From IMG/VR virus record IMGVR_UViG_3300026026_000014, positions 1 to 55,236 of that record: DNA of 55,236 nt; one strand, written 5' to 3'. This DNA comes from a virus (Duplodnaviria; Caudoviricetes). The notes beneath the pieces are model-generated. The model saw only the letters and a list, made by a program, of their open reading frames with translations, had not been told where the DNA came from and did not search any database. Positions within the stretch are counted from its first letter, which is position 1, and the number at the start of each line of letters is the position of its first letter. The translations under genes were made by a program, and so were the position numbers. Positions 9,832 through 50,499 of the stretch are shown one piece after another.

Positions 9832-11853
9832 ATGCACGAGTTAATAGAAACAATAACAGAAATAATTCCTAATAACTCTGGGTATGATCATGTATTTATT
9901 GACTTCGAAACTTATTCAGAATGTGATTTAATGAAATGTGGTGCATCAGTATATGCTGAACATCCTTCAACTGACATCATCTGTCTTTCGTATCGTTTTA
10001 TATCTGGCGATAACGAATTTGCACACATGTATCGCCCATATGAAGGAGATCAGGCTCCTCAAAAACTTTTTGATGCTATTAAAGCAGGAATTGTAATTAA
10101 AGCGCAAAATGTATTCTTCGAGAAATGTATTTGGAAATATGTCTGTCTTAAGCGTGGATGGCCTCAAGTACACTATTCTCAATGGCGTGATACTATGGCT
10201 AAATCAGCCATGCATGCCATATCATTATCATTAGAAGCCGCTGGTGTTGCTCTTGGATTAAACGAACAAAAGAGTGCAAGTGGTAAAGCTCTCATTAAAC
10301 TTTTATCTGTTCCACAAAAGAATGGCCGAAGAGTCACAAGAGATCAGAATCCAACAGCTTATGCTCAAATGTATGCTTATTGTGATCAAGATACTGCAGC
10401 AGAAAAAGCTATTGACGATAATCTTTTGAATCTTAAAGATCACGAACAAAGATTCTGGTTCATAAATCAAAGAATAAATGAACGTGGGATACCTATTGAT
10501 ATTCACTCATGTAAAATAATACAAAAGAAATTACTCGAAGAAATCCAGCATTTTGAAGACAAAGCTGTTCAATTATCTGGAGGTAGATTTACTACACTAA
10601 ACCAACGAGTTAAAATACTTGCATGGTTAAAAGACCAAAAACTTGAACTTCCTGATTATACTGCACAAACTGTTGAAGATGCACTTAATGGTAAGTTTGG
10701 TCCATTAAATGGTCCTGCATTAGAACTTCTTACTCTACGTCAAGCAGCAGGCAAATCATCTACTAAAAAGTTTGCTTCAATGATTGCTTGTGCAAATTCA
10801 GATGATCGAGTACGTGGATGCTTATTATATCATGGTGCTCATACTGGTAGAGACGCTGGACGATTAATACAACCTCATAATTTTGCTAAACCAACATTTG
10901 AAGTCGAAGAATTTGGTGGTTATGAATTATTAGTAGAACGTCTTATTACTATGGGACGTCGTGAAATAGAAACACATTATCCACAATCATTCATGAATTT
11001 AGCTTCTTCAGCTTTACGTTCGATGATAAAGCCAAAGAAAGGTAAAAAGTTATATGCAGCAGATTATAATGCAATTGAAGTACGAGTTTTGTTTTGGTTA
11101 GCAGGGTGTACAAGTGGTCTTGATATATACCGTAATAGAGGAGACATTTATGTTAGAATGGCTTCTAGTGTGTACAGAATACCTGAAAATCAAGTTACTA
11201 AAGATCAACGGTGGTATGGTAAGACAATTATTCTTGGAGCAGGATTTGGTTTAGGAGGTAAAGGATTTGTAAATACATGTGCTAACTTTGGAATTAAAGT
11301 AGACATGGAATTTGCAGATCTTGCAATTAAATCATATCGTAGTGATTATCCTGAAGTTGTAAAACTTTGGAATGGCATAGAGAAAGCTGCAATTGGCGCA
11401 GTTTTGTTAAATGTAGAAACTGAATATCGTTTAGTTAAATTTCGTAAAATAGGAAACTTCTTATACTGTAAACTTCCACAAGGTCGTTTAATCTCATATC
11501 CATTCCCAAAAATTGAAGATGTTAAAACTCCATGGGGTGAAGTTAAAAAGCAATTAACATATCGTACTATGCAAAATAATTTCTGGTGTAGAACTTCAAC
11601 TTATGGCGGAAAACTTGTAGAGAATATTGTACAAGCAACAGCTAGAGATTTTATGGCTAATGGCGTAATAAATCTTGAAGCTAACGGTTATCCAGTCATA
11701 CTTATGGTACACGATGAAATTATATCAGAAGTTGATGATAATTTCGGTTCTCTTGAAGAGTTTGAATCATTAATGTGTAAAGATGTTGCTTGGGGATTAG
11801 ATTGTCCAATTCTTGCAGAAGGAGCAATTTTGTCCAGATACCAGAAATTGTAA
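9832..11853 (+). CDS. family A DNA polymerase (SPO2/APSE-like) with 3'-5' exonuclease
   Basis: Exo I IDFETYS; YHGAHTGR; motif A ADYNAIEVRV; motif B RWYGK; ENIVQATARD; motif C VHDEI. Confidence 0.95.
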   Translation: MHELIETITEIIPNNSGYDHVFIDFETYSECDLMKCGASVYAEHPSTDIICLSYRFISGDNEFAHMYRPYEGDQAPQKLFDAIKAGIVIKAQNVFFEKCIWKYVCLKRGWPQVHYSQWRDTMAKSAMHAISLSLEAAGVALGLNEQKSASGKALIKLLSVPQKNGRRVTRDQNPTAYAQMYAYCDQDTAAEKAIDDNLLNLKDHEQRFWFINQRINERGIPIDIHSCKIIQKKLLEEIQHFEDKAVQLSGGRFTTLNQRVKILAWLKDQKLELPDYTAQTVEDALNGKFGPLNGPALELLTLRQAAGKSSTKKFASMIACANSDDRVRGCLLYHGAHTGRDAGRLIQPHNFAKPTFEVEEFGGYELLVERLITMGRREIETHYPQSFMNLASSALRSMIKPKKGKKLYAADYNAIEVRVLFWLAGCTSGLDIYRNRGDIYVRMASSVYRIPENQVTKDQRWYGKTIILGAGFGLGGKGFVNTCANFGIKVDMEFADLAIKSYRSDYPEVVKLWNGIEKAAIGAVLLNVETEYRLVKFRKIGNFLYCKLPQGRLISYPFPKIEDVKTPWGEVKKQLTYRTMQNNFWCRTSTYGGKLVENIVQATARDFMANGVINLEANGYPVILMVHDEIISEVDDNFGSLEEFESLMCKDVAWGLDCPILAEGAILSRYQKL

Positions 11854-14333: not shown

Positions 14334-14446
14334 ATCATGTGCCTGGTTTAATCCTGGTTTAATAGTTTTATATATTTATATATCTATATTAAATATATAA
14401 GGTTTTATCAAACCGGGATATCCAGGCACACCAGGCTCATTGTTTT
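14334..14446. repeat. dispersed palindromic element, copy 1
   Basis: ATCATGTGCCTGGTTT...AT-rich core...GGTTTTATCAAACCGGGATATCCAGGCACACCAGGC. Confidence 0.9.
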
Positions 14447-15592: not shown

Positions 15593-16992
15593 TGTCAAAA
15601 CTCTGGATACCACATAAATATCAGCAAGATACTGAAGATTTTGCTATTGATAAATCATATGCAGGTTTATTATTGGATCCAGGTTTAGGTAAGACTTCTA
15701 TATCTCTTAATATGCTTAACAAGTTAAAGAGAAAAACTCTTGTTATTGCTCCACTTCGTGTATGTCATTTAGTGTGGCCTAATGAAACTAAAAAGTGGAC
15801 CAACTTTAATAACATAAAAATTGCGGTAATGCACGGAGCAGAGAAAGAAAAACAATTTTTGCGTAATGATGTTGGAGTTTATGTAATAAATCCTGAAGGT
15901 ATAGATTGGCTCCATGATATGATCAAAAAACATAAAAGATTTCCTTGGGAAATTCTTATTGTTGATGAATCTACTAAATTTAAAGCACATAAAGCAAAAC
16001 GATTTAAAATTCTAAAGACTTTTCTACGAATGTTTAAGAAACGTTATATTCTTACTGGCAGTTTAGTAAGTGGTGGATTACTTGATCTTTGGGCACAAAT
16101 ATACATTCTTGATCTCGGTAAAGCATTAGGAGAAACTTTCTATGCTTATCGTAATAAATACTTTTTTCAATCTGATTATCAAGGATTTAAGTTCGAACCT
16201 CATCCGTGGGCAATGGAACAAATTTTAGATAAGATAAAACCTTTCTGTATACATTTAAGCGCGCGAGATCACCTTGATCTTCCTGAAATGATAGTAAATG
16301 ACATATATGTGGATTTACCAGAGAAGGTAATGAAACAATATAAACAGATGGAAGATAAGTTATTTTCTGAATTGTCATATGATGAAGAATCATTTAAAGT
16401 GGTTGCGAGTTCTGCTGGTGTAGCTTATGGTAAATGTCGTCAAATAATTCAAGGGTTTATGTTTGAACATTTAGACGAGTTAGAGAAAGCGAAAGGTAGA
16501 AAACCTAAATTTTATCACATACATGATGAAAAAGCTCAAGCATTGAAATCATTCACTGATTCACTTGACGGGAATCCTGCAATGATAGCTTTCCATTATA
16601 AACCTGATCTGTTAAAACTACAAGAGTTATATCCAGGAATGCCTTATATAGGTTCTGGAGTTACAATGGACCAAACGCGAATTATAGAACGTGAATGGAA
16701 TCAAGGTAAATACCCTATACTTGGTGGACATCCTATGAGTATGGGACATGGATTAAATCTACAAGAATCTGGTTACAACGTTATATGGTATTGCCTTACA
16801 GATTCATATGAATTATATGATCAATACAATTGCCGAGTTTTAAGACAAGGTGCAAAATCTGATCATGTAATGGTTACGCGAATAATTGCCCGTGGTACTA
16901 TAGATGAAGCTACAATTATAAATCTTCAAAATAAAGGTAAAACGCAGTCTGATATGTTAAATGCACTTAAACTTTACAGGAGAATGTTATGA
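15592..16992 (+). CDS. SNF2-family helicase
   Basis: PHKYQ, DPGLGKT, IVDES, LTG, GHGLNLQ, Q...RVLRQG. Confidence 0.92.
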   Translation: MSKLWIPHKYQQDTEDFAIDKSYAGLLLDPGLGKTSISLNMLNKLKRKTLVIAPLRVCHLVWPNETKKWTNFNNIKIAVMHGAEKEKQFLRNDVGVYVINPEGIDWLHDMIKKHKRFPWEILIVDESTKFKAHKAKRFKILKTFLRMFKKRYILTGSLVSGGLLDLWAQIYILDLGKALGETFYAYRNKYFFQSDYQGFKFEPHPWAMEQILDKIKPFCIHLSARDHLDLPEMIVNDIYVDLPEKVMKQYKQMEDKLFSELSYDEESFKVVASSAGVAYGKCRQIIQGFMFEHLDELEKAKGRKPKFYHIHDEKAQALKSFTDSLDGNPAMIAFHYKPDLLKLQELYPGMPYIGSGVTMDQTRIIEREWNQGKYPILGGHPMSMGHGLNLQESGYNVIWYCLTDSYELYDQYNCRVLRQGAKSDHVMVTRIIARGTIDEATIINLQNKGKTQSDMLNALKLYRRML

Positions 16993-17576
16993 GAGATTTA
17001 AGAAAATTGGAACTTAAAATCGCAATTGCATTAGTTATATTCTTTGCTTCAATAGTTGTATATTTTGTACCAAGTCCTATTAAAGCAAAACCTATTGCTG
17101 CTATAGACTCTGCGGGACAAACTGCATGGATAGCAAATGTTTTAGAGACTCGCTATAAAGTAAAGAAACCATATTCTATTATGATAACTACTATGATAGA
17201 ACAAGCTTCTGTAGAATACAACATAAGTCCTATGATAATAATGTCTGTGATTAAAGTAGAATCTGATTATGTATCACGTAATGGTAAGCATGGCGAAATA
17301 GGATTTATGCAATTAAAACCTAAATTCTGGACTAAACCTTGTAACAAGTATGATATACACGATAAATATGAAAATATACTTGTTGGAGCTTGCGCAATAC
17401 GTTATAATATGAATCTCACTGACAATATAAGCGACGCACTTACGGCTTATAATATAGGATTCACTAATTTTGATAAAGATGTAAATTTGTTAAATGGATT
17501 CACTTATAGAGACAAAGTTCTTGATGAAAATATGGATTTAATTGATCTTTCACTTTTACCGATAGATACAAACTGA
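16989..17576 (+). CDS. membrane-anchored lytic transglycosylase (SLT domain)
   Basis: N-terminal TM helix; VIKVES (catalytic Glu), GFMQL, NILVGA, ALTAYNIG. Confidence 0.8.
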   Translation: MRDLRKLELKIAIALVIFFASIVVYFVPSPIKAKPIAAIDSAGQTAWIANVLETRYKVKKPYSIMITTMIEQASVEYNISPMIIMSVIKVESDYVSRNGKHGEIGFMQLKPKFWTKPCNKYDIHDKYENILVGACAIRYNMNLTDNISDALTAYNIGFTNFDKDVNLLNGFTYRDKVLDENMDLIDLSLLPIDTN

Positions 17577-17577
17577 T

Positions 17578-18111
17578 ATGAGTTCAATGATAGGTTATAT
17601 AACTAGAGTAATGTCTGCGTTTAAACATACGGGTGCTTTTGGTGAAGAAGAGCTTCGTGAAATAGAATCTATTCTGTATGCAGTTGCACAACAGGAAACT
17701 CGTGATGTAGTTTTACACAAAGCAGATAGAAATACTATTGCCTCAAGTTTTTCTGCTATAGCTTTAGTTGGTCACCAATTTAAAGTTAAGGAAGGAGAAA
17801 AAGTAATAGTATATGAATTAATATGTACTGTTACCGCAAGAGATTTCACAAATGGAAAGATTCAAGTTATGAATCCGTTTTGGGGAATACAATGGGTACC
17901 AGAACAGTCTTGTATACGTATCCAAGAGTTATTTACTTTAGGTATGTTACGTGATGTTATTAAGACTGCTATGTCACCTAATTTCATAAAAGATTTCAAG
18001 AAGAGAATAGGTCGTGAAAAATCAATTGATTTAGATCATGATACTGAAGCTTCTGGATATCTTGAATATGAAAAGAATGAATCAAAAGAATTATCAAAAA
18101 TTGATAAATAA
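17578..18111 (+). CDS. hypothetical protein
   Basis: 177-aa ORF packed in the operon. Confidence 0.6.
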   Translation: MSSMIGYITRVMSAFKHTGAFGEEELREIESILYAVAQQETRDVVLHKADRNTIASSFSAIALVGHQFKVKEGEKVIVYELICTVTARDFTNGKIQVMNPFWGIQWVPEQSCIRIQELFTLGMLRDVIKTAMSPNFIKDFKKRIGREKSIDLDHDTEASGYLEYEKNESKELSKIDK

Positions 18112-18124
18112 TTTAAAGTTTTTG

Positions 18125-18153
18125 TTTACTTTTGATATATGTTGTTATATAAT
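18125..18153 (+). promoter_or_regulatory. sigma70-like promoter
   Basis: TTTACT-17bp-TATAAT. Confidence 0.7.
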
Positions 18154-18217
18154 ATACACTGATAATTAAGTTAAACACTAAATTATCTTTTACAACCCAC
18201 TTACTTAGGAGACACTT

Positions 18218-18583
18218 ATGTCTAAACAAGAAGCAGCACAAGAAGTTGTTGATACTGGCCCGAAAAAAGCAAAACGCGTAAATGGCATCACCAAAGAAGC
18301 CAAATTGACCGTTCTGACCCAAGTAAACCCCAAGCGTGAAGGTTCACAAGCGTTTGATCGTTTCGAAGGTTATTTCAAACTTGAAACTGGTGCTACAGTA
18401 CAAGACGCACTGGATGCAGGTTTGACCATCGGTGATGTGCGTTATGATGTTATCCACGGCAGCATTGCTGTTGAAGGTGCTACTGTTGAAGAGTATGAAG
18501 TTACTCCTCGCAGTGAGTCTGAAGATGCAGCTGCTGAAGCTGCTGGTGCAGACACAGCAAGCGCAACTGATAGCGGCTTTTAA
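18218..18583 (+). CDS. hypothetical protein, probably highly expressed, possibly DNA-binding; acidic tail ending TDSGF
   Basis: own promoter, AGGAG RBS and terminator; NPKREGS.A..RF..Y motif. Confidence 0.75.
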   Translation: MSKQEAAQEVVDTGPKKAKRVNGITKEAKLTVLTQVNPKREGSQAFDRFEGYFKLETGATVQDALDAGLTIGDVRYDVIHGSIAVEGATVEEYEVTPRSESEDAAAEAAGADTASATDSGF

Positions 18584-18601
18584 TCCAGGCTGACCCAATA
18601 G

Positions 18602-18635
18602 AAAAGGGACCTATTTAATTATAGGTCCCTTTTTT
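18602..18635 (+). terminator. intrinsic terminator
   Basis: AAAAGGGACCTAT / ATAGGTCCCTTTT stem plus a T-run. Confidence 0.85.
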
Positions 18636-18657
18636 ACATTTGGAGATCTCCAAGACC

Positions 18658-19323
18658 ATGAAAACCAACTTCGAAGACATAGTGGACTTTCATACGAAAT
18701 TTGGTATGGAAATGCCTACACAATTAATGAAATTGCCAAAAGATACCGTTGAATATCGCGGATGCTTTATGGTTGAAGAATTATCAGAATATGTAACCGC
18801 ATTCAAAGATAAAAACCATGAAGGTATGATAGATGCTCTTATAGATTTATCTTATGTAATTCAAGGCACCGCACTTATGCATGGTGAAAAGTGGGATGAT
18901 AACCATAAGAATTATTCAAAAGGTCCACGTAATCTTGAATATCTTGCACATACTATGATTTCTTCAGAGATCATAAAAGATGCTGCAAGTAGATTCGCTG
19001 CTCTCATTAAACTCTATTCAAAAGGAGTTATGTCTGAAAGTCCAATTGATCTTGAAGGAGGTATGGTATCATTGCATATAATGAATGCAATGGCTGTATC
19101 ACTCGCAGTAATTAGCGGATATAATTGGCAATTACATTGGGATGAAGTTCATAAATGTAATATGGCTAAAGAACGATCTAAAGGTGCAGATGATCCTCGT
19201 TCAAAAAGAGGTAGTGCACTTGATGTAGTTAAACCAGAAGGTTGGGTAGCTCCCAATCACACCCCCATAATTCAAGCAAAAGCTTTGCTTTTAACGGAGA
19301 AGTGCAATGTCAATAATCATTGA
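18658..19323 (+). CDS. all-alpha NTP pyrophosphohydrolase (MazG/PRA-PH-like; candidate dCTPase/dUTPase)
   Basis: FHTKFG, EELSE...DALIDLSYV..G, WDEVH..NMAK, KPEGW..P. Confidence 0.85.
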   Translation: MKTNFEDIVDFHTKFGMEMPTQLMKLPKDTVEYRGCFMVEELSEYVTAFKDKNHEGMIDALIDLSYVIQGTALMHGEKWDDNHKNYSKGPRNLEYLAHTMISSEIIKDAASRFAALIKLYSKGVMSESPIDLEGGMVSLHIMNAMAVSLAVISGYNWQLHWDEVHKCNMAKERSKGADDPRSKRGSALDVVKPEGWVAPNHTPIIQAKALLLTEKCNVNNH

Positions 19324-19879
19324 AGGTCCAGATTGTAGTGGTAAAAGCACATTGATTCTTGAGGAATTCAATGATTTATGCGTAATTCATAACGGAAGAT
19401 ATCCATCTCCTATGGAAGCATTTAAAGCATATTTAGGTCAATGTCCATCTCCACGATATAATTTCCATAATATTGTATGGGACCGTAATTATCCTTCTGA
19501 ACAAATTTATGGTAAAATTTATCGAAGTAAAAACATAGGTCAAGAACATATTGATGTCCTTGAGAAACATCTCGCAGATATTAAAACTGTCATTGTTTTA
19601 TGTTGTCCTCCAAAAGAAACAATCATTAACAATTGGCGTAAACTTAAACAAGAACGTAATGAATATATCGAAAATGAAAGTTATTTCGAAGATATAGTTA
19701 ATGAATATGACAAGTACTTTAATTTGTATGTTATGTTACCTGTAGTTCATTACGATTATACTGAAACTGCGTTCAACAAAGAAAATCCTATTAAAGTACG
19801 TATTGAACAAATGCGTACTATGTGGTATGATGGTTCTTTTAACAAAGGAATACCGAATTCAAGGGATATGAAACTATGA
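19307..19879 (+). CDS. deoxynucleoside monophosphate kinase (thymidylate kinase-like)
   Basis: IIIEGPDCSGKSTL P-loop; WDR...SE..YG. Confidence 0.85.
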   Translation: MSIIIEGPDCSGKSTLILEEFNDLCVIHNGRYPSPMEAFKAYLGQCPSPRYNFHNIVWDRNYPSEQIYGKIYRSKNIGQEHIDVLEKHLADIKTVIVLCCPPKETIINNWRKLKQERNEYIENESYFEDIVNEYDKYFNLYVMLPVVHYDYTETAFNKENPIKVRIEQMRTMWYDGSFNKGIPNSRDMKL

Positions 19880-20682
19880 TTAAGACATATCCTAATGCCA
19901 CAATGGCATGGCTCGATACATATAATGAAATACTTCTTAATGGCACACACGTCAGTCCAAGAGGTACAGAAACATTGGAATTGTTAAACAACAGTTTTGC
20001 ATTTGACATGAAGTATCCAATTTGCTATCACCAACATAGGAAATTAGCATATGGATTCTTGGCTGCAGAAGCTGACTGGATTACACGTGGGTCAAATCTC
20101 GTCGCAGATCTTACGCCTTATAATAAACGTATGGCAGATTTTAGTGATGATGGTGTTTATTTATCTGGTGCATATGGAATACCATATAATGAACAGTTTG
20201 ACTACGTACTTGCTGCTTTATGTAAAGATATTAACACACGTCAAGCAGTTATGACTATTTGGGGTAGAAATCCTAAAGATTCAAAAGACATCCCATGTAC
20301 TGTAGCTATGTCTTGGAATATACGTAATAATCGTTTAAACTGTCATGTCTTTATGCGCTCTAGCGATGCACATTTAGGATTACCTTATGACATGTTTAGT
20401 TTTACGATTATGACATTACGGTTATTATGCGCATATAATTGTAGGCAGTTCGATGGAAGTAAAATAATTCCAGGTAACATGTATATGAATTTGGCATCTA
20501 GTCACATCTATGAACAGCATTACAAAATTGCTCAAGAATGTTTAATGCTTCCACCAGACAAAATGACTAGTTCTATACCAGAATTCTGTTATGATAGTTG
20601 GGATAATGTGTATAGAGCTTTGAAATATTGTATGGATAAAGAAGTGACGTGTGAACCAATTTGGTACATTCGGCCATTATAA
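19876..20682 (+). CDS. thymidylate-synthase-superfamily enzyme, likely dCMP hydroxymethylase
   Basis: DIPC catalytic Cys; MRSSDAHLGLPYD with Asp at the Asn177-equivalent specificity site, as in T4 gp42; SHIYE. Confidence 0.8.
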   Translation: MIKTYPNATMAWLDTYNEILLNGTHVSPRGTETLELLNNSFAFDMKYPICYHQHRKLAYGFLAAEADWITRGSNLVADLTPYNKRMADFSDDGVYLSGAYGIPYNEQFDYVLAALCKDINTRQAVMTIWGRNPKDSKDIPCTVAMSWNIRNNRLNCHVFMRSSDAHLGLPYDMFSFTIMTLRLLCAYNCRQFDGSKIIPGNMYMNLASSHIYEQHYKIAQECLMLPPDKMTSSIPEFCYDSWDNVYRALKYCMDKEVTCEPIWYIRPL

Positions 20683-20691
20683 AAATTTTAG

Positions 20692-20720
20692 TTTACTTTG
20701 ATATAAACCGAGTATATAAT
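20692..20720 (+). promoter_or_regulatory. sigma70-like promoter upstream of the beta-glucosyltransferase operon
   Basis: TTTACT-17bp-TATAAT. Confidence 0.7.
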
Positions 20721-20760
20721 ACTCTTTTATTATATACTTAAATTTACTTTTAAACCAACC

Positions 20761-21027
20761 ATGAGGATATTTAAGATGTGGATTAACTTGCAAGGGAAGA
20801 GAATTTGTTTACTTGGATGTAATGCTATTGAACCAATTGAAGCAAAAGACGACAATAACGATCCTTTATATGGAATACGTTTTGATCACGAAGGTGTAGC
20901 TGTTAATGCTCTTACAAACGAGCATGCATTTAACTCAACTGCGGTATACTATCCAACTGAAAAGCAACGCGATGGTGTATTATCACAAATCGATGGTTTA
21001 CTTGAAAATCCAGCGGTATTAGTATGA
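20761..21027 (+). CDS. hypothetical protein
   Basis: ORF overlapping the bgt start; alternative start at 20776 with GAGGA RBS. Confidence 0.6.
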   Translation: MRIFKMWINLQGKRICLLGCNAIEPIEAKDDNNDPLYGIRFDHEGVAVNALTNEHAFNSTAVYYPTEKQRDGVLSQIDGLLENPAVLV

Positions 21028-22151
21028 AACTTGGTGTAATGAAGTTAGGTGCTTCTATTACGTGGTCTCAAGTCTCACGTACTGCTGCAAACTTCGATAT
21101 CCATTCAATAATTGGTTGTCTGCGATCTCCTGCTCAAATTACAGGAGACGTAGACATATCTATTATTACGCGCAATACGCGCAATACGTGGATACCTGAA
21201 GATATGCACTTTGTTGATATCATGAAAACTGATATTAACTCGCATGGATTTGATGCACTTGTTGTATTCAATGGTAATGTGAATTTCTTTGGAGGCGCAG
21301 AAGCTCCCGACCAAATTATGAATTATGTACATATGAACAGGTTTAATGGACCTATTATATATGTACAAACTGATGGTCAATTGCAACTTAAACAATTGTG
21401 GCCTGCTATTGAATGTAAAGATTGGGCTAAGAATTGGAAAGAGGAAGATATCGTAGTTAAACGTGATGATATTATTTACCTTTCACAAGCTCGCAGACCA
21501 GAACGAGTTTATGAACTTTGTCAAAAGAAAGGTAGTGTTCCTATTAAGAAGGAAAACATATATCACTTTCCAATTGAACAAGCTATTCTCGCTAAACGAG
21601 AGAATAGAATTGTACAGAAGCAGAAAGAATATGATCTTATCTACGGAGGTTCACTACGTGGAGGAGCTCGTAAGAAATTGCTTGAGAAGTATTACCTTGA
21701 TCAGTTTAATCTTAAGGTAGCGCTTTTTGGCAACGTAAAAAGAAAGGATTTTAAGGAATATAACAATATGCCTTCTTTCCTTTCTAAAGTAGAGCATCAC
21801 GCATTTATGAGTGCTCTTACAAGAGGTAAGTCTACTTGTATTATTGGTGATGAATGGTACTTTGATAATATGCATACATTGCGTATTTATGAGACTATTC
21901 GAGCTGATGTAGTATGCTTTGTGGCTACAGAGTTTGATCCGCGAAGAACAATCTTCAAAGATGATAAACTCAATGACTTTTTATATGTTTCATCGAAAGA
22001 GGAGCTTGCTGATAAAGCAAGAAGCTTAGATGCCAAAAAACTCTATTACATCACCGAATCACAAACATCATCAATCGATTTCAACAGAGATAGCTACGTT
22101 AATCGATTATATGCAAGATTTTCCGAAATACTCGGAGCGTATAAGCGTTGA
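21024..22151 (+). CDS. bgt: DNA beta-glucosyltransferase (T4 BGT homolog)
   Basis: collinear motifs with T4 BGT: NFFGG, TD (catalytic Asp100 position), Q.WP, FPIEQ, D.IYGGS.R.G.R, FGN, IIGD..Y.DN..TLR..ET, EFD, YV....EL. Confidence 0.9.
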   Translation: MKLGVMKLGASITWSQVSRTAANFDIHSIIGCLRSPAQITGDVDISIITRNTRNTWIPEDMHFVDIMKTDINSHGFDALVVFNGNVNFFGGAEAPDQIMNYVHMNRFNGPIIYVQTDGQLQLKQLWPAIECKDWAKNWKEEDIVVKRDDIIYLSQARRPERVYELCQKKGSVPIKKENIYHFPIEQAILAKRENRIVQKQKEYDLIYGGSLRGGARKKLLEKYYLDQFNLKVALFGNVKRKDFKEYNNMPSFLSKVEHHAFMSALTRGKSTCIIGDEWYFDNMHTLRIYETIRADVVCFVATEFDPRRTIFKDDKLNDFLYVSSKEELADKARSLDAKKLYYITESQTSSIDFNRDSYVNRLYARFSEILGAYKR

Positions 22152-22563
22152 TGAGTACTACATGGCAATGGCAATGTTGGCTGGATTAAGGTCAACTTGC
22201 TCAAGACGCCGTGTAGGATGTATATTAACTGACAAGACAAATAGAGTTTTGTCTGTCGGTTATAACGGTGTACCTAGAAAAGCTCCGCATTGCATAGATA
22301 ATCCATGTGCTGGTGCGGAGTCTCCTTCTGGACAAAATTTACAGAACTGTTACGCTACACATGCGGAGCAAAATGCACTGATATCTTGTAGAGACATACA
22401 AGCTATTCATACAGCATACGTTACAGCTTCGCCTTGTGATTCATGTGTAAAGTTGTTTGTAAATACCTCTTGTGAACGGATTGTTTTCTTAGATAAGTAT
22501 CCGTCTACAGGAGAAGAAATCTGGCATTTAACTGGTCGTAAATGGGAGCAATTGTATGGCTAA
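22111..22563 (+). CDS. dCMP deaminase
   Basis: RSTC.RR.VG, GYNG.P, HAEQNA and SPCDSC Zn motifs; start uncertain. Confidence 0.92.
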   Translation: MQDFPKYSERISVDEYYMAMAMLAGLRSTCSRRRVGCILTDKTNRVLSVGYNGVPRKAPHCIDNPCAGAESPSGQNLQNCYATHAEQNALISCRDIQAIHTAYVTASPCDSCVKLFVNTSCERIVFLDKYPSTGEEIWHLTGRKWEQLYG

Positions 22564-22891
22564 ACGTAAACCACCAAAGAAAGTAGTAAAGAAAAAAGTT
22601 GTAAAGAAAGTAGTACCAATTAGCGCAGAACAGTTTCTGTACGCAGGTGCAGATCATTTTGAAGCGCGCAAAAAGAAATATGATAAACCGGAAGGTGAAC
22701 GTTCTATGGCGAAAACTGTAGAGATGTTCAACACTCTGACTGGTCATAATTTGAATGAACAACAAGGTTGGAAATTCATGATCTTATTGAAGACTGTTCG
22801 TTCAGAACATGGACCTTTCCATGCAGATGACTATGAAGACTGTGCAGCTTATGCTGGTCTTGCTGGTGAAGCTGCTTCTAAAACTCGCTAA
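22556..22891 (+). CDS. DUF6378-like protein with a Lys-rich N-terminus
   Basis: ERSM...FN.LTG..L...QGW.FM.LLK.VR...FH.D.YED..AYAGLAGE. Confidence 0.7.
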   Translation: MAKRKPPKKVVKKKVVKKVVPISAEQFLYAGADHFEARKKKYDKPEGERSMAKTVEMFNTLTGHNLNEQQGWKFMILLKTVRSEHGPFHADDYEDCAAYAGLAGEAASKTR

Positions 22892-22905
22892 TTAAAGGTA
22901 TTCAT

Positions 22906-23988
22906 ATGATTACACCAAGACCGAATGAAAAGACATTATACCGTAATGCAAAACATGGTATTAGTAAATGGACTATTTATTCTATTGGTGCTATTATTCA
23001 TATGGAAAGCGAGTCTAAACTTGGAGATTCTCCTACTCGCTATACTGAGACTGTTAGTCATGGTAAAGCGGGTAGGAGTCTTGAGCAACAAATTAAAAGT
23101 CGTATAGATTCTCGTATAAATAGTAAGCGAGATCATGGATATGTAGACACAATGGAACAAGCAAAACTTCCATTGAAGAATATACTTGGCTTACATAAAC
23201 CTATGTTAGCCGTAAAATGGCGAGATGTAGCGAAGAAAACGAAAATAGAAACTTGCTATGTACAACCAAAACTTGACGGACACCGTTGTTTAATGACTAT
23301 GGAAGAAGGTAAAGTAGTCGCTTATTCAAGAGGTGGACGCTATATTAACACTGTAAAACATATCACATCTAAATTGAATATACCTGAAGGTGTTACATTA
23401 GATGGTGAAATTTACAAACACGGTATACCACTACAAGTTGTAAGTAGTTGGGCTAAGAGACAACAACCAGAGAGCGTGATACTCGACTACATAGTTTATG
23501 ATTTGGTTGAAACTCATCTTGATTATGAAGATCGCCATGAAATATTAAAAGAAATTGCTGCGTTAAATCCTCATATAACGATATGTCCTACTAAGTTTGT
23601 AGGTGATATTCCAAACTATAACTTAAAAGAACACTTAGTATCTACTATTAAGGGTGGATATGAGGGTTTAATGTTACGTCCTAAATACGGTTTATACGAA
23701 ATAGGTCGTAGATCAAAGTGTCTTATTAAAGTTAAAGCTCTTGAAGACGATGAGGCAAGAGTTACTGGAATAACAGCATCTAAAGATGGTTGGGCTGTGT
23801 TGCATTGTAAACATAGAAATGGACAGATCTTCAAACTATCTGCTCCAGGTACTATTGCTGATAAGACTCATGTGTTAAAGAATATTGAAAAGTATGTAAA
23901 CAAAGTAGTAACATATGAATACGCACAATTAACTGATGATGGAAAACCATTTCACGCAGTTGCATTGCGTTGGAGAGAAGACCTATGA
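22906..23988 (+). CDS. ATP-dependent DNA ligase
   Basis: motif I QPKLDGHR, LDGEIY, YDL, YEGLMLR, LIKVK, OB-fold C-terminus. Confidence 0.92.
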   Translation: MITPRPNEKTLYRNAKHGISKWTIYSIGAIIHMESESKLGDSPTRYTETVSHGKAGRSLEQQIKSRIDSRINSKRDHGYVDTMEQAKLPLKNILGLHKPMLAVKWRDVAKKTKIETCYVQPKLDGHRCLMTMEEGKVVAYSRGGRYINTVKHITSKLNIPEGVTLDGEIYKHGIPLQVVSSWAKRQQPESVILDYIVYDLVETHLDYEDRHEILKEIAALNPHITICPTKFVGDIPNYNLKEHLVSTIKGGYEGLMLRPKYGLYEIGRRSKCLIKVKALEDDEARVTGITASKDGWAVLHCKHRNGQIFKLSAPGTIADKTHVLKNIEKYVNKVVTYEYAQLTDDGKPFHAVALRWREDL

Positions 23989-24174
23989 TAAGTAAATTCA
24001 CAGAAGAACAATTAAAAGAATTGCGCACTGCTTGTAATAGGATGAAGATTACTCCTGAAGAAGCTATTGAACGTATTTATGGAGAGAAAGCTACATTGTA
24101 TTTGAATAAAACGAGTAATACTTTTCAAGTTAACTCTCTAAAGAAAATTATCTACGATTTAAAGGAACAAGTAA

Positions 24175-24438: not shown

Positions 24439-24440
24439 GT

Positions 24441-24540
24441 ATCATGTGCCTGGTTTATCCCTGGTTTTACATAAAATTTATTAATATAGATATATTAATT
24501 ATATTAGGTTTTATAAAACCTGTTAAACCAGGCACACCAG
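24441..24540. repeat. dispersed palindromic element, copy 2
   Basis: ATCATGTGCCTGGTTTATCCCTGGTTT...GGTTTTATAAAACC...AAACCAGGCACACCAG. Confidence 0.9.
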
Positions 24541-24579
24541 AGTATGTTCTAATATATAAATCTAGATTATATAAAAATG

Positions 24580-25191: not shown

Positions 25192-25548
25192 TTGGAATTT
25201 GTGAGGTTGACAATAGTGACTAAAGTATCTACTTATTTAACTTTTAACGATGTGACACAATTCATTATCGATAATCCATCAAGGATTAGTGAAATAATGG
25301 AGGTATGTAAAGAACACCGTCTTACAGATCGTGAACTTGCTATCTTAAAATATATTCACACATCATTTCAAGAGCATACTTCGCCTTCAATTGCTAAAAG
25401 ATTTGATCTTTCTATACAAGCATCAAGTAACTATCTTACTAATTTATTTAAAAGAGGTTACCTAATGCGTAGAGATGTAGGAGATCCATCTGGTGGTATT
25501 ATGTTTGAATATGAATTAACTCACAAAGGATTCAAATATGTTAAGTAA
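25192..25548 (+). CDS. winged-helix (MarR-like) DNA-binding protein
   Basis: LTDRELAILKYI...SIAKRFDLSIQASSNYLTNLFKRGYL.R...YELTHKG; start uncertain. Confidence 0.7.
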   Translation: MEFVRLTIVTKVSTYLTFNDVTQFIIDNPSRISEIMEVCKEHRLTDRELAILKYIHTSFQEHTSPSIAKRFDLSIQASSNYLTNLFKRGYLMRRDVGDPSGGIMFEYELTHKGFKYVK

Positions 25549-27041: not shown

Positions 27042-27053
27042 TAGGAGATAATT

Positions 27054-27845
27054 ATGAAAAAATTACTTTTGGTATTTTGTATTACATGTTTAGTCGGGTG
27101 TTATAGTAATACAACACCTCCAGGATTTGAATCTGTTGTAATTGAAAATCCTTTTATATTAGGTCATGGTGGTGTTCAAGATACTACGCAAAAACCTGGT
27201 TTATCTTGGTATTTCATGTCTACAAAAACTGTGGATGTGGCCCTCACACCAATAAAGTATGATGAACCATTGGAACATCTAACTACAGGTGATAACAACT
27301 TTATCAACTATAATAGTTATATAGTGTTACAATGGAAAGATCCTGCTTATATGGTTAAGACATTTGGATATTCTAAATGGTACGAAAACAATTTACAAGA
27401 ACAATATCGTACAATTGTCCGTGATGTAACCAAAGAATATTCAATGACTAAAATCATGACTGATCAACAAACTTTATTAGAAATTGAAAATAAAGTCGCT
27501 GAAAGGTTCCGTAAACATATTGAATCAACTGGTTTGCATGTTGATTTAATTAATGTTAATATGGGAAAAAGTCTTCCAAATGCGAGTGTAATATCTGAAA
27601 TGGATAATACAGCTGTTCAACAACAACGTATTAAAACTGAGAGTCAATGTAAACTTGCAGAAGACTCACGTATGGCAGCAGAACAGAGTAGGGCGAAGGC
27701 TGATAATGCATATCGTGAATCTATGCAATTGAATGCTTCTCAATTTGTGCAACTTGAATCTATTAAAAAGTATTCAGAAGCTTGTTCAATTTCTAAAAGT
27801 TGTATAATAGTGCAAGGTAACGCACCTGTACTTGTGGGACAATAA
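27054..27845 (+). CDS. SPFH/band-7 domain lipoprotein
   Basis: lipobox LVGC; PPG.E.V...P...GHGGV; C-terminal coiled coil AEQSRAKAD. Confidence 0.8.
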   Translation: MKKLLLVFCITCLVGCYSNTTPPGFESVVIENPFILGHGGVQDTTQKPGLSWYFMSTKTVDVALTPIKYDEPLEHLTTGDNNFINYNSYIVLQWKDPAYMVKTFGYSKWYENNLQEQYRTIVRDVTKEYSMTKIMTDQQTLLEIENKVAERFRKHIESTGLHVDLINVNMGKSLPNASVISEMDNTAVQQQRIKTESQCKLAEDSRMAAEQSRAKADNAYRESMQLNASQFVQLESIKKYSEACSISKSCIIVQGNAPVLVGQ

Positions 27846-27846
27846 T

Positions 27847-28548
27847 ATGAAACTTGAAGTTTTAGATCATGGATATGTAGAACTCATTGAGACATGGGGC
27901 AGTGAAGAGCGAATTGTAGAAGCTGCCCGTATGTCTACAGGTAAAGGTTTCAAAGGTTGGGGAACTCCTATTGAACCAGGTGATGAGAAACTTCTGGCGC
28001 ATTTATACAGAAATAATCATGCCACACCTTTTGAAATGGCGGGACTTATTATTGAAGTGAAAGCTCCAATAATGGTGTTCAGAGAATGGCATAGACACCG
28101 TACTCAAAGTTACAACGAAATGAGTGCACGTTATATTCCAATCCCTGATGAAAACTACATTCCATCTATAGAGCGACTTTTAGGATCAAATGCTGCTACA
28201 AGTAATAAACAAGCGCAGAATACTACAGGTCGCGAACTATTAGTTGGTGATGCAGTATGTTTTCAAGATGATCTTGAGAAAATATACCAAAGCGCTCAAC
28301 ATCTTTATGAAAGAGCTCTTTTAGATGGTATACCAAAAGAACTTGCTCGCTTATGTTTACCAGTCGGTAGATATTCACGTATGAGAGCATCTGCTAATTT
28401 ACGTAATTGGTTAGCGTTCTTAAAATTGCGTCAGACTCAGTTTGCTCAGTATGAAATTCGAGTTTATGCAGATGCAATAGGTAAAATCATTGAGAGTAAA
28501 TTTCCATATACGTGGGAATTATATCTTGAAGAGACCACTAAGTTTTGA
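27847..28548 (+). CDS. thyX: flavin-dependent thymidylate synthase
   Basis: H.TPFE, ThyX motif RHRTQSYNEMSAR, ELARLCLP, AQYEIR. Confidence 0.95.
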   Translation: MKLEVLDHGYVELIETWGSEERIVEAARMSTGKGFKGWGTPIEPGDEKLLAHLYRNNHATPFEMAGLIIEVKAPIMVFREWHRHRTQSYNEMSARYIPIPDENYIPSIERLLGSNAATSNKQAQNTTGRELLVGDAVCFQDDLEKIYQSAQHLYERALLDGIPKELARLCLPVGRYSRMRASANLRNWLAFLKLRQTQFAQYEIRVYADAIGKIIESKFPYTWELYLEETTKF

Positions 28549-28593: not shown

Positions 28594-28608
28594 AATTGTG
28601 ACTTATGA

Positions 28609-28720
28609 ATCATGTGCCTGGTTTATCCCTGGTTTAACAATATTTTAATTTATATAGATATATTAATATAACTCGGTTTTATTAAACCTAATAAACCAGG
28701 CACACCAGGCTCATTGTTTT
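28609..28720. repeat. dispersed palindromic element, copy 3, at the convergence of the two transcription arms
   Basis: ATCATGTGCCTGGTTTATCCCTGGTTT...TAAACCAGGCACACCAGGCTCATTGTTTT. Confidence 0.9.
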
Positions 28721-50462: not shown

Positions 50463-50499
50463 TACTTTCATTAAAAATAATTAAAAAGATTTGAGATGA

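What the first reader, a model, noticed from the sequence alone, without database searches (positions are those of the whole stretch)
18658..22891. Complete T4-style glucosyl-hydroxymethylcytosine pathway in a 55-kb siphovirus with a family-A polymerase
Seen: adjacent genes for an all-alpha NTP pyrophosphatase, a dNMP kinase, a TS-family enzyme whose specificity site reads GLPYD, a full-length T4 BGT homolog and a dCMP deaminase. The BGT retains the TD, GGS.R.G.R and LR..E motifs. Known: Asn at that TS position selects dUMP, while Asp selects dCMP as in T4 gp42. T4 uses gp56, gp1, gp42, BGT and cd to make glc-hmC DNA. Inference: this small phage replaces C with beta-glucosyl-hmC, using non-orthologous substitutes for gp56 and gp1. 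That would require a PolA-type enzyme to incorporate hm-dCTP and copy glucosylated templates. This chemistry is classically tied to large T-even myoviruses with a B-family polymerase.
Basis: partly seen in the sequence, partly recalled or inferred. Interest (0 to 1): 0.82.

Follow-up and report, generated by a model that had tools for sequence, protein, structure and literature searches.

The report
Sugar-modified cytosine pathway in small phage
An uncultured tailed phage carries a gene set predicted to replace the cytosine in its DNA with sugar-coated hydroxymethylcytosine, as phage T4 does, but built partly from different enzyme families; related cassettes turn out to be widespread, so it is an interesting variant and not a new kind of system.

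Summary
Window 18640-22891 encodes, in order, a MazG-type NTP pyrophosphatase, a P-loop dNMP kinase, a ThyA-family enzyme, an 88-aa ORF, a T4 beta-glucosyltransferase (BGT) homolog, a dCMP deaminase and a DUF6378 protein. The phage has a family-A polymerase and a siphovirus-type tail module. The ThyA homolog reads D/C/D/D at the four positions (E. coli L143/C146/D169/N177) that a 2026 NAR paper uses to separate product classes. That matches T4 gp42 (5hm-dCMP), not RB69 gp48 (5-hydroxy-dCMP) and not true TS. The BGT homolog folds confidently onto T4 BGT and keeps the catalytic Asp. A 44.9-kb metagenomic relative keeps the whole cassette. Glycosyl-5hmC DNA is the best reading, at about 0.68. The novelty was overstated. 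BGT homologs paired with D/C/D/D enzymes occur on many non-T-even contigs and in 85-kb enterococcal siphoviruses. The MazG-kinase-TS-deaminase module occurs in PolA siphovirus AXL3, whose DNA resists restriction. CheckV rates the contig 66% complete. The sugar, the extent of replacement and all activities are untested.

The parts
18125..18153 (+). Promoter-like site TTTACT-17-TATAAT upstream of the cassette region; one member of a repeated extended motif
   Evidence: (family D4). There are 9 matches at <=1 mismatch against 1.87 expected, and 0 of 100 shuffles reach 9. The exact copies are at 9127, 14505, 18125 and 20692, all on the + strand.
18218..18583 (+). 121-aa ORF of unknown function with an acidic C-terminus, lying between the promoter-like site and a strong hairpin
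   Evidence: No Pfam, PHROG or NCBIfam hit. 82% identical to the L044 counterpart.
18599..18636 (+). Terminator-like hairpin followed by a U-run, between the 121-aa ORF and the NTP-PPase gene
   Evidence: -22.6 kcal/mol, z -7.0, 0 of 200 shuffles fold as well. Sequence. The consensus scan did not list it. The cassette would need read-through or an unrecognised promoter.
18640..19323 (+). MazG / all-alpha NTP pyrophosphatase, the inferred dCTPase step (ATG at 18658 is the likely start)
   Evidence: PF01503, E 1.2e-6, above cut-off; phrog_671, E 9e-20. 52% identical to the L044 counterpart. 27-39% identical to the NTP-PPases of PW916 and AXL3. Homologs lie near the BGT in 12 of 40 IMG/VR loci. 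No PDB relative by sequence. Substrate is inferred, not shown.
19307..19879 (+). P-loop dNMP kinase (GPDCSGKST), the inferred hm-dCMP/dTMP kinase step
   Evidence: phrog_761, E 2.9e-14. Pfam dNK and TIGR00041 hits are below cut-off. 72% identical to the L044 counterpart. 27-31% identical to the PW916, AXL3 and HTVC119P neighbours of the TS homolog. No match in T4.
19876..20682 (+). ThyA-family enzyme with the dCMP hydroxymethylase (5hm-dCMP synthase) signature: D138, C141, D164, D172
   Evidence: PF00303, E 1.5e-21. Fails all seven NCBIfam TS equivalog cut-offs matched (22-49 bits against 108-427). Signature D/C/D/D matches T4 gp42, with RB69 gp48 = E/C/N/D and td = L/C/D/N as controls. 70% identical to the L044 counterpart.
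20692..20720 (+). Second promoter-like site of the same type, directly before orf88-BGT
   Evidence: The -10 region and downstream sequence are conserved in L044.
20761..21027 (+). 88-aa ORF of unknown function; its stop overlaps the BGT start codon (ATGA)
   Evidence: No family hit. L044 has an 84-aa ORF in the same position with the same MWI start and the same overlap. No homolog at E < 1e-4 in the 40 IMG/VR BGT loci.
21024..22151 (+). T4 BGT-family DNA glycosyltransferase (GT-B fold), with catalytic Asp117 and UDP-site residues R212, R216, R287 and E290
   Evidence: PF09198, 62.6 bits against 27; phrog_7922, E 1e-49. T4 BGT is the only PDB family hit by sequence, E 3e-32. AF2 model pLDDT 93.1, pTM 0.90. 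The Foldseek top six are T4 BGT, E 2e-27 to 5e-23, TM 0.71-0.83; the next hit is E 2e-8, TM ~0.5. The key residues are invariant in 30 homologs.
22030..22563 (+). dCMP deaminase (HAE and PCxxC zinc motifs). The start is uncertain: ATG at 22030, 22111 or 22162. The ORF overlaps the BGT 3' end
   Evidence: PF00383, E 9.1e-17; phrog_174, E 2.2e-33. 87% identical to the L044 counterpart. 42-45% identical to the deaminases next to the TS homolog in MW202621, PW916 and AXL3. Start codons read.
22556..22891 (+). DUF6378 protein, function unknown; the most conserved gene of the cassette
   Evidence: PF19905, E 8e-11. phrog_474, E 1.3e-26, is labelled 'phosphofructokinase', a label I do not trust. 92% identical to the L044 counterpart. 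The Atlas returns only DUF6378 clusters.
27832..28548 (+).
   Evidence: PF02511, E 7.4e-41. TIGR02170, 150.3 bits against an equivalog cut-off of 87.9. phrog_85, E 3.9e-52. Sequence.
9832..11853 (+). Family-A DNA polymerase, which must incorporate the modified dNTP and copy modified templates
   Evidence: PF00476, E 1.4e-21; phrog_17, E 2.8e-93. 78% identical over the 309 aa held in L044.

Best explanation
The phage makes DNA in which cytosine is replaced by a glycosylated 5-hydroxymethylcytosine, using a T4-like logic assembled partly from different protein families.

Inferred route:
1. The MazG-type NTP-PPase hydrolyses dCTP (and probably dUTP) to the monophosphate. This keeps plain dC out of phage DNA and supplies dCMP.
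2. The ThyA-family enzyme hydroxymethylates dCMP to 5hm-dCMP with methylene-tetrahydrofolate. Water attacks the exocyclic methylene because an Asp replaces the water-excluding Leu143.
3. The P-loop kinase makes 5hm-dCDP, and also dTDP. Host NDP kinase completes the triphosphate.
4. The family-A polymerase incorporates 5hm-dCTP.
5. After replication, the BGT homolog flips out 5hmC and transfers a hexose, most likely glucose from UDP-glucose, with Asp117 as catalytic base.
6. In parallel, the dCMP deaminase and ThyX route part of the dCMP to dTMP.

Shown here: family membership, diagnostic residues, fold, gene order and conservation. Inferred: every substrate, the sugar and its anomer, and the extent of replacement.
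For: TS homolog. It reads D138/C141/D164/D172 at E. coli L143/C146/D169/N177. T4 gp42 reads the same. The proven 5-hydroxy-dCMP synthase RB69 gp48 reads E/C/N/D and a T-even td reads L/C/D/N. The residue code comes from sections 24 and 28 of PMC13326640. The homolog fails all seven NCBIfam thymidylate-synthase equivalog cut-offs it matched. The phage has its own ThyX, which passes its equivalog cut-off, so dTMP synthesis is already covered.

BGT homolog. T4 BGT is the only PDB family hit by sequence (E 3e-32). The model has pLDDT 93.1. T4 BGT entries fill Foldseek ranks 1-6 with TM 0.71-0.83, against ~0.5 for the next GT-B enzymes. D117 aligns with the residue that differs between the wild-type and D100A entries. 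D117, R212, R216, R287 and E290 are invariant in 30 of 30 homologs.

Association. In 29 of 40 IMG/VR loci with a BGT homolog, a TS homolog lies within 10 kb, and 29 of 29 read D/C/D/D. About 23 remain distinct after collapsing loci that look duplicated.

Conservation. Relative L044 keeps MazG (52%), kinase (72%), TS (70%), the small ORF, BGT (74%), deaminase (87%) and DUF6378 (92%) in the same order.

Phenotype of the nearest isolate. AXL3 has homologous MazG, kinase, D/C/D/D TS and deaminase and a PolA. Its DNA resisted the 35 of 37 enzymes that have G/C in their sites (passages of PMC7504290).
Against: - No activity has been measured. The virus is uncultured, so virion DNA has not been analysed.
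- The residue code was derived mainly from Straboviridae and a few other enzymes. No member of this TS clade (21% identical to gp42) has a proven product that I could find. The AXL3 authors read their enzyme as an ordinary TS.
- 11 of the 40 BGT loci show no TS homolog within the flank held, some because the contig ends. The GT family is therefore not strictly tied to such an enzyme.
- The kinase falls below curated Pfam and NCBIfam cut-offs.
- MazG substrate specificity cannot be read from sequence, and it has no relative in the PDB by sequence.
- A strong hairpin with a U-run sits just upstream of the MazG gene, so how the first half of the cassette is transcribed is unclear.
- The contig may be incomplete. 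Further modification genes could lie off-contig.
Confidence: 0.68

Rival explanations
1. 5hmC is made and incorporated as above, but the GT does not add beta-glucose. It may use another NDP-sugar or anomer, glycosylate only a fraction of sites, or be followed by further decoration.
For: The GT is only 29-30% identical to T4 BGT and has two insertions in the acceptor-side N-terminal domain. Viral DNA GTs are reported to install diverse glycans (abstract start and passages of bioRxiv 10.1101/2023.12.21.572611). A conserved small ORF appears translationally coupled to the GT. A weak sulfotransferase-like gene lies 3.4 kb downstream (PF13469, E 7.6e-5, below cut-off).
Against: The catalytic Asp and the residues that align with T4's UDP-site residues are invariant. 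No NDP-sugar biosynthesis genes were found in the window ORFs scanned, which favours a universal donor such as UDP-glucose. The sulfotransferase hit is below cut-off.
Confidence: 0.17
2. The ThyA homolog makes something other than 5hm-dCMP (5-methyl-dCMP as in XP12, 5-hydroxy-dCMP as in RB69, or 5hm-dUMP as in SPO1), and the GT acts on that base or on another acceptor.
For: The enzyme is closer in sequence to canonical TS (27.8% to a T-even td; PDB TS hits at E 1e-11) than to gp42 (21.3%). PW916's homolog is annotated as a dUMP hydroxymethyltransferase. No product has been proven for this clade.
Against: - Asp at N177 argues against dUMP as substrate.
- Asp at L143 argues against a methyl product.
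- Asp kept at D169 argues against the 5-hydroxy class, all tested members of which carry Asn.
- A methyl product would offer no hydroxyl for a GT.
- A phage replacing T by hmU would not be expected to keep a ThyX and a dCMP deaminase.
- All 150 of the 150 nearest representatives carry C146, D169 and N177D.
Confidence: 0.08
3. The cassette is ordinary nucleotide salvage (dTMP supply). The BGT homolog glycosylates a non-DNA target or is inactive, and the virion DNA is unmodified.
For: The AXL3 authors gave this reading for the homologous genes. MazG, kinase, deaminase and TS-like genes are common auxiliary genes of phages.
Against: - ThyX already supplies dTMP, and the ThyA homolog fails the TS equivalog cut-offs and lacks Asn177.
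- The GT matches only the DNA-modifying T4 BGT at high TM.
- In every locus where the two co-occur, the TS homolog has the D/C/D/D signature.
- AXL3 DNA is in fact restriction-resistant at G/C-containing sites.
Confidence: 0.05

Closest known systems
Bacteriophage T4 glucosyl-hydroxymethylcytosine pathway (gp56 dCTPase, gp42 dCMP hydroxymethylase, gp1 dNMP kinase, beta-GT, cd, td)
   Same: Same predicted step order. The TS-family enzyme has the same four diagnostic residues as gp42. The GT belongs to the T4 BGT family and keeps the catalytic Asp. A separate dTMP synthase and a dCMP deaminase are present. As in T4, the hydroxymethylase and BGT genes lie close together.
   Different: The TS homolog is only 21-25% identical to gp42 and belongs to another clade. 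The dCTPase role falls to a MazG-type enzyme and the kinase to a TMK-like P-loop protein, neither with a match in T4. dTMP comes from ThyX, not a ThyA-type td. The replicase is family A, not B. No alpha-GT was found. The virion is siphovirus-type with a contig of 55 kb, against T4's 169 kb.
Stenotrophomonas phage AXL3 / Pseudoxanthomonas phage PW916 / Siphoviridae sp. ctUtU524 (MW202621) module
   Same: Homologous MazG (27-39%), kinase (27-31%), D/C/D/D TS homolog (43-49%) and dCMP deaminase (42-45%) in the same order. These are small siphoviruses of 47.5-55.7 kb; DNA polymerase I and ThyX are documented for AXL3. AXL3 DNA resists G/C-site restriction enzymes.
   Different: None of them has a BGT homolog or the 88-aa ORF. 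AXL3 and PW916 carry a methyltransferase gene upstream that the window lacks. Genome-wide they are only distant relatives; 8 window ORFs match MW202621.
Enterococcus siphoviruses of Andrewesvirinae (nattely, vipetofem, vB_EfaS_140; ~85 kb)
   Same: A non-T-even, non-contractile-tailed phage with a P-loop protein, an Asp-type D/C/D/D TS homolog and a BGT homolog side by side. A T4-like BGT and restriction-refractory DNA were reported for vB_EfaS_140 (passages of PMC7820071).
   Different: The dCTPase candidate is dUTPase-fold, as in T4 gp56, not MazG. No family-A polymerase was detected in nattely. The BGT is only 29-33% identical to the window's. The host is Gram-positive.
RB69 / DLP3 arabinosyl-5-hydroxycytosine pathway
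   Same: A TS-superfamily enzyme acts on dCMP (N177D), followed by a kinase, incorporation and post-replicative glycosylation.
   Different: Those synthases carry D169N and use a flavin and O2. The window enzyme keeps Asp169. No NDP-arabinose biosynthesis genes are present here.
Metagenomic 5hmC tailoring cassettes (MetaGPA 5hmC carbamoyltransferase; GT-B genes next to ThyS genes)
   Same: A TS homolog is paired with a tailoring enzyme on uncultured phage contigs (section 12 of PMC8670742). GT-B-like genes are reported as associated with thymidylate-synthase genes in about 28% of pathways (passage of bioRxiv 10.1101/2023.12.21.572611).
   Different: Those reports are surveys, or concern a different tailoring group (carbamoyl). 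In the text I could read, this particular lineage and its AXL3-type module are not described.

Membership tests
[quoted passage not shown] | Thymidylate-synthase fold or domain | tested here: met
   PF00303, E 1.5e-21, 77.2 bits against 24.3. 123 PDB TS-family sequences match at E <= 1e-3.
[quoted passage not shown] | Catalytic Cys (E. coli C146) | tested here: met
   C141 aligns with C146 and with T4 gp42's Cys.
[quoted passage not shown] | Asp in place of Asn177 (dCMP rather than dUMP) | tested here: met
   D172 in GLPYD. The td control reads N. The rule is stated.
[quoted passage not shown] | Acidic residue in place of Leu143 (admits water; hydroxymethyl rather than methyl product) | tested here: met
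   D138, three residues before the Cys, as in gp42. HMMER's pairwise alignment to E. coli TS puts a one-residue gap here, so the assignment rests on spacing from the Cys and on the gp42 alignment.
[quoted passage not shown] | Asp169 retained (Asn marks 5-hydroxy-dCMP synthases) | tested here: met
   D164. The RB69 gp48 control reads N.
[quoted passage not shown] | Conversion of dCMP to 5hm-dCMP | not testable with these tools
   Needs an enzyme or in vivo nucleoside assay.
T4 gp42 orthologous group | Close sequence kinship with gp42 | tested here: not met
   21-25% identity. gp42 is not among the best 60 PDB hits, while canonical TS entries are. The nearest relatives form a separate clade of 428 clusters at E <= 1e-30. 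It works like gp42 by residue code but is not a gp42 ortholog.
T4 DNA beta-glucosyltransferase family (PF09198) | Family HMM above the curated cut-off | tested here: met
   62.6 bits against 27; phrog_7922, E 1e-49.
T4 DNA beta-glucosyltransferase family (PF09198) | Two-domain GT-B fold closest to T4 BGT | tested here: met
   Model pLDDT 93.1. T4 BGT entries take ranks 1-6, TM 0.71-0.83. T4 alpha-GT scores only E 1.7e-7, TM ~0.55.
T4 DNA beta-glucosyltransferase family (PF09198) | Catalytic base Asp100 | tested here: met
   D117 aligns with the position that differs between the wild-type and D100A PDB entries. It is invariant in 30 of 30 homologs.
T4 DNA beta-glucosyltransferase family (PF09198) | UDP-binding Arg191, Arg195, Arg269 and Glu272 (the roles of these residues are recalled, not taken from a call) | tested here: met
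   R212, R216, R287 and E290 align with them and are invariant.
T4 DNA beta-glucosyltransferase family (PF09198) | Transfer of beta-glucose from UDP-glucose to 5hmC in duplex DNA | not testable with these tools
   Donor, anomer and acceptor all need biochemistry.
MazG / all-alpha NTP pyrophosphohydrolase | Family HMM above cut-off, and acidic metal-binding motifs (the EExxE ... ExxD pattern is recalled) | tested here: met
   PF01503, 29.3 bits against 21.3; phrog_671, E 9e-20. The sequence shows VEELSE and EGMIDALID.
MazG / all-alpha NTP pyrophosphohydrolase | dCTP-specific hydrolysis (the functional analogue of T4 gp56) | not testable with these tools
   Supported only by association: it lies beside the TS homolog in AXL3, PW916, MW202621 and L044 and near the BGT in 12 of 40 loci.
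dNMP / thymidylate kinase (P-loop) | Walker A motif plus a kinase family HMM | tested here: inconclusive
   GPDCSGKST is present and phrog_761 scores E 2.9e-14. PF01712 (17.4 against 27) and TIGR00041 (23.8 against 83.25) are below cut-off.
dCMP deaminase | Family HMM above cut-off with HAE and PCxxC zinc motifs | tested here: met
   PF00383, 61.3 bits against 25. HAEQNA and PCDSC are in the translation.
ThyX (flavin-dependent thymidylate synthase) | Equivalog HMM above cut-off and the RHRxxS motif (motif recalled) | tested here: met
   TIGR02170, 150.3 bits against 87.9. RHRTQS is in the translation.

The most novel reading that the evidence does not exclude
The window's ThyA homolog belongs to a large, biochemically uncharacterised clade: 428 clusters at 50% identity with E <= 1e-30, and 143 of the 150 best carry the full D/C/D/D signature. 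This clade is closer in sequence to canonical ThyA than to T4 gp42, and it occurs in small PolA phages of soil and sea, including pelagiphages and AXL3. If the clade is a separate branch of dCMP hydroxymethylases, then 5hmC-based DNA is common among small phages rather than a T-even speciality. This lineage would then be the first seen to have joined that module to a BGT-type glycosyltransferase, acquired together with its own promoter and a small, apparently translationally coupled partner protein (orf88) that might modulate the transferase.
Probability: 0.35. Interest if true: 0.6.

Novelty: new variant of a known kind. Interest (0 to 1): 0.42.

Why it matters
If confirmed, this shows the T4 strategy (exclude dC, build 5hmC at the nucleotide level, then sugar-coat it on the DNA) rebuilt from a MazG-type pyrophosphatase, a TMK-like kinase, a different TS-family clade, ThyX and a family-A replicase in a small siphovirus. 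That would extend the range of phages expected to resist restriction enzymes and CRISPR nucleases, and to be targets of type IV (modification-dependent) restriction. It would also offer compact new enzymes: a diverged BGT for 5hmC labelling, and a PolA that tolerates modified cytosine. More broadly, the size and uniformity of the TS clade suggest that 'thymidylate synthase' annotations in many small phages, such as AXL3, PW916 and the pelagiphages, may hide cytosine-modifying enzymes. That matters for metagenomic library bias and for choosing phages for therapy.

Tried and rejected
- Megablast of 18000-24000 against 50,697 phage records found no match. A single-protein scan of IMG/VR with the BGT found 3 pattern matches but no relatives. 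I then built a 30-sequence alignment, which retrieved 40 loci.
- The MazG protein had only two chance-level hits against PDB sequences, E 0.34 and 0.43, so I make no structural claim about its specificity.
- DUF6378 in the ESM Atlas returned only DUF6378 clusters; function stays unknown. I do not adopt the PHROG label 'phosphofructokinase'.
- Rfam found no family in the window, and ARAGORN found no tRNA.
- I tested MW202621 (circular, 55.7 kb) as a genome-wide relative to judge completeness. Only 8 window ORFs matched, terminase and portal at 23-25%, and PolA not at all. I draw no inference about completeness from it.
- A small terminase among the two left-end ORFs was not detected. No terminal direct repeat was found.
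- PolA in other mid-sized BGT-bearing records: 0 of 5 (nattely plus four IMG/VR contigs rated 12-30% complete). Among what I examined, the PolA-plus-BGT pairing is therefore seen only in the window and L044.
- T4 searched with the window's kinase and MazG gave nothing at E <= 1. The tool notes that an empty answer alone shows nothing.
- In one search the td control read 'Q' in the L143 column because of an alignment gap. I replaced the column rule with 'third residue before the catalytic Cys', which gives L for td.
- Considered and rejected, for the reasons given under rivals: hmU or base-J-like chemistry, 5mC, and 5-hydroxycytosine.
- Literature. 'hydroxymethylcytosine' plus 'Andrewesvirinae' returned 0 papers. 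Four papers mention nattely, vipetofem or vB_EfaS_140. In the pelagiphage/hydroxymethyl search, 109 papers held at least 2 of the 4 terms and 10 were listed, none pairing pelagiphages with hydroxymethyl terms. One search was swamped by mammalian epigenetics.
The supplements and Figure 6A of PMC13326640, and Tables S4-S5 of the 2023 preprint, may list tested TS homologs or GT-bearing genomes that bear on novelty.
- Not used: complex prediction (I make no binding claim for orf88-BGT), the look-up of sequencing runs, read laying, the second structure job, and the genome-contig scan.

Full report
WHAT THE WINDOW IS

The window is a complete IMG/VR virus record of 55,236 bp. It is classed linear, and CheckV estimates it at 66% complete. 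It has no near relative among 50,697 deposited phage genomes. Its coat protein reaches only 23-31% identity to coat proteins of Dinoroseobacter, Vibrio, Thalassomonas and Shewanella phages.

The genes form two arms that converge at about 28.6 kb.
- The + strand arm (about 2.2-28.5 kb) carries a primase, a Gp2.5-like SSB, a family-A polymerase, an exonuclease, a SNF2 helicase, the cassette in question, an ATP-dependent ligase and a ThyX.
- The - strand arm (55.1 to 28.7 kb) carries the large terminase, portal, scaffold, coat, adaptor, neck, tail terminator, tail assembly chaperone, a 991-aa tape measure, distal tail proteins, a 1808-aa tail protein, an endolysin and a spanin.

None of the 20 large and structural-arm ORFs scanned matched a sheath family, so 'siphovirus-type' is reasonable. 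All functional modules are present. I found no terminal repeat and no small terminase, so '55 kb' is a contig length and not an established genome size.

THE OBSERVATION

The quoted motifs are there: GLPYD in the TS homolog, and T116-D117, GGSLRGGAR and LRIYE in the BGT homolog.

THE TS HOMOLOG

A 2026 NAR paper, of which I read the abstract and sections 24, 28 and 29, changes how an 'Asp-type' TS homolog has to be read. RB69's supposed dCMP hydroxymethylase actually makes 5-hydroxy-dCMP with a flavin and O2. The paper gives a residue code in E. coli ThyA numbering:
- C146 is the catalytic residue.
- N177D selects dCMP.
- L143D/E goes with a hydroxymethyl rather than a methyl product.
- D169N marks the 5-hydroxy-dCMP synthases.

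The window enzyme reads D138/C141/D164/D172. T4 gp42 reads D/C/D/D, RB69 gp48 reads E/C/N/D and a T-even td reads L/C/D/N. In one search the td Leu was displaced by an alignment gap. Counting three residues back from the Cys resolves it.

The enzyme scores 22-49 bits against NCBIfam thymidylate-synthase equivalog cut-offs of 108-427, so it fails all of them.

It passes its equivalog cut-off (150.3 against 87.9) and carries RHRTQS. With ThyX making dTMP from the dUMP supplied by the dCMP deaminase, the ThyA-type enzyme has no evident role except cytosine modification. T4 has the same arrangement (td beside gp42), and so does AXL3 (gp50 beside gp28).

THE GLYCOSYLTRANSFERASE

By sequence it matches T4 BGT and nothing else in the PDB (E 3e-32). 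An AlphaFold model built on 30 homologs is confident (pLDDT 93.1, pTM 0.90). Foldseek places six T4 BGT entries first (E 2e-27 to 5e-23, TM 0.71-0.83). Other GT-B enzymes, including T4 alpha-GT, follow at E around 1e-7 to 1e-8 and TM about 0.5.

D117 aligns with the one residue that differs between the wild-type and D100A entries. D117, R212, R216, R287 and E290 are invariant in 30 of 30 homologs and in the four-way alignment with T4, nattely and L044. The N-terminal, acceptor-side domain has two insertions relative to T4. The sugar and its anomer cannot be read from this evidence.

COMPARATIVE SUPPORT

(a) A 44.9-kb metagenome contig (L044) is a syntenic relative. It keeps, in the same order, PolA (78%), exonuclease (68%), helicase (75%), MazG (52%), kinase (72%), TS homolog (70%), a small ORF, BGT (74%), deaminase (87%), DUF6378 (92%) and ligase (72%). 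The cassette is therefore maintained across substantial divergence.

(b) An alignment-based scan of IMG/VR returned 40 loci with BGT homologs, on contigs of 4.5-429 kb. In 29 of the 40, a TS homolog lies within the flank held, and all 29 read D/C/D/D. Several loci look like duplicates, which leaves about 23 distinct. In the other 11, none was found, in some cases because the contig ends. A MazG homolog lies near the BGT in 12 of the 40, and a dUTPase-fold gene in 7 of the 40.

(c) The nearest TS homologs in deposited phages (40-49% identity) belong to small phages: MW202621 (circular, 55.7 kb), PW916 (47.8 kb), AXL3 (47.5 kb) and the pelagiphages HTVC119P and HTVC200P. The four I fetched (all but HTVC200P) read D/C/D/D. 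Their neighbouring NTP-PPase, kinase and deaminase genes are true homologs of the window's. None of them has a BGT.

(d) For AXL3, the passages I read report that 35 of 37 restriction enzymes failed to cut, and all 35 have G/C in their sites. Only the two A/T-only enzymes cut. The phage encodes DNA polymerase I and a ThyX. The authors interpreted gp28 as an ordinary TS. The residue code suggests otherwise.

(e) An exhaustive search of 1.84 billion representatives found 428 clusters at E <= 1e-30. Of the best 150, all 150 carry C146, D169 and N177D, and 143 also have Asp three residues before the Cys. Five of the seven exceptions are long proteins that match in two stretches.

HOW NEW IS IT

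Enterococcus siphovirus nattely (Andrewesvirinae, 85.7 kb) has a P-loop protein, a D/C/D/D TS homolog, a dUTPase-fold enzyme and a BGT side by side. For its relative vB_EfaS_140, a T4-like BGT and restriction-refractory DNA were noted in 2021, with that result given as 'data not shown' (passages).

A 2023 preprint reports that GT-B-like viral DNA glycosyltransferases are associated with thymidylate-synthase genes in about 28% of metagenomic pathways (passage). The MetaGPA study validated a 5hmC carbamoyltransferase from a contig that pairs it with a TS homolog (section 12).

Family-A polymerases that replicate T-modified genomes are in print; I saw only the search listings and abstract starts. 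The PolA is therefore not a conceptual obstacle.

What does seem particular to this lineage is the combination: the AXL3-type MazG-kinase-TS-deaminase module, ThyX and PolA joined to a BGT. Among the records I checked, PolA and BGT co-occur only in the window and L044, and 0 of 5 other BGT-bearing records had a PolA.

The BGT and its small upstream ORF sit behind their own promoter-like site. This site belongs to a motif family that is over-represented in the window: 9 matches against 1.87 expected, and 0 of 100 shuffles reach 9. It is conserved in L044. That pattern fits an insertion of orf88-BGT into an older module, but I did not test the order of events.

UNCERTAINTIES

- No activity, substrate or product has been measured.
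- The residue code has not been validated in this clade, which is 21% identical to gp42 and 28% to td.
- The kinase sits below curated cut-offs.
- MazG specificity is inferred by association only.
- A strong hairpin with a U-run (z -7.0) lies just before the MazG gene, so how the first half of the cassette is transcribed is unclear.
- The contig may be incomplete.

VERDICT

The pathway inference is well supported computationally, and I put about 0.68 on glycosylated 5hmC DNA. The novelty is moderate: a new variant of a known kind of system.

Noticed in passing
window 14334-14435, 24440-24541, 28608-28709, 42779-42880, 50490-50591: Five copies of a ~105-nt element with inverted termini (GTGCCTGGTT ... 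AACCAGGCAC) around an AT-rich palindromic core. They lie mostly between genes; one sits exactly where the two arms converge. There is no Rfam match. A copy seems to sit at the equivalent site in L044 (about 3428-3589). It could be a bidirectional terminator or regulatory hairpin family, or a miniature mobile element.
   Followed up: partly
window 6461, 9127, 14505, 18125, 20692, 24580 (+ strand); 24147, 50434 (- strand): An extended promoter-like motif, (G)TTTACT-N17-TATAAT, occurs 9 times at <=1 mismatch against 1.87 expected (0 of 100 shuffles reach 9). The four exact copies are all on the + strand of the early arm. They are probably the phage's host-RNAP early or middle promoters.
   Followed up: partly
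window 18218-18636: A 121-aa ORF of unknown function (82% identical to the L044 counterpart) is bracketed by a promoter-like site and a very stable terminator-like hairpin (-22.6 kcal/mol, z -7.0). This suggests a separately and strongly expressed small early protein just upstream of the modification cassette.
   Followed up: partly
window 25538-26116: A 192-aa protein with weak sulfotransferase similarity (PF13469, E 7.6e-5, 23.5 bits, below the cut-off of 27) and a GIPRSGTS loop. It is conserved at 39% in L044. Its function is open, and any link to DNA or sugar decoration is pure speculation.
   Followed up: no
window 26577-27845 and 16989-17576: Envelope-related genes in the early arm: an OMP beta-barrel domain protein (PF13505), an SPFH/Band 7 protein (PF01145, E 1.2e-13) and an SLT transglycosylase (PF01464). 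Together with the spanin they point to a Gram-negative host.
   Followed up: no
L048 (AXL3 gp28), L047 (PW916), L049 (HTVC119P gp16), L046 (MW202621): Deposited annotations ('thymidylate synthase', 'deoxyuridylate hydroxymethyltransferase') disagree with the residue signature D/C/D/D, which predicts dCMP hydroxymethylases. AXL3's G/C-site restriction resistance fits the latter.
   Followed up: partly
proteins P0048, P0049, P0110, P0131, P0151: Five members of the TS clade are 495-623 aa long and match the query in two stretches. For four of them (P0048, P0049, P0110, P0151) the listed stretch ends at about query residue 142, right at the catalytic Cys; for P0131 it ends at 188. That would fit an intein or other insertion at the active site. 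Their odd 'L143' residues may be an artefact of this.
   Followed up: no
L003 7027-9894 (Enterococcus phage nattely): An unannotated ('hypothetical protein') T4-like cassette: a P-loop protein, a D/C/D/D TS homolog, a dUTPase-fold enzyme (like T4 gp56) and a BGT (PF09198, E 2e-61), with RNase H and thymidine kinase nearby. No family-A polymerase was detected in the genome.
   Followed up: partly
window 5365-5721: A DUF4326 protein (PF14216, E 2.8e-21) lies directly after the primase gene; function unknown.
   Followed up: no
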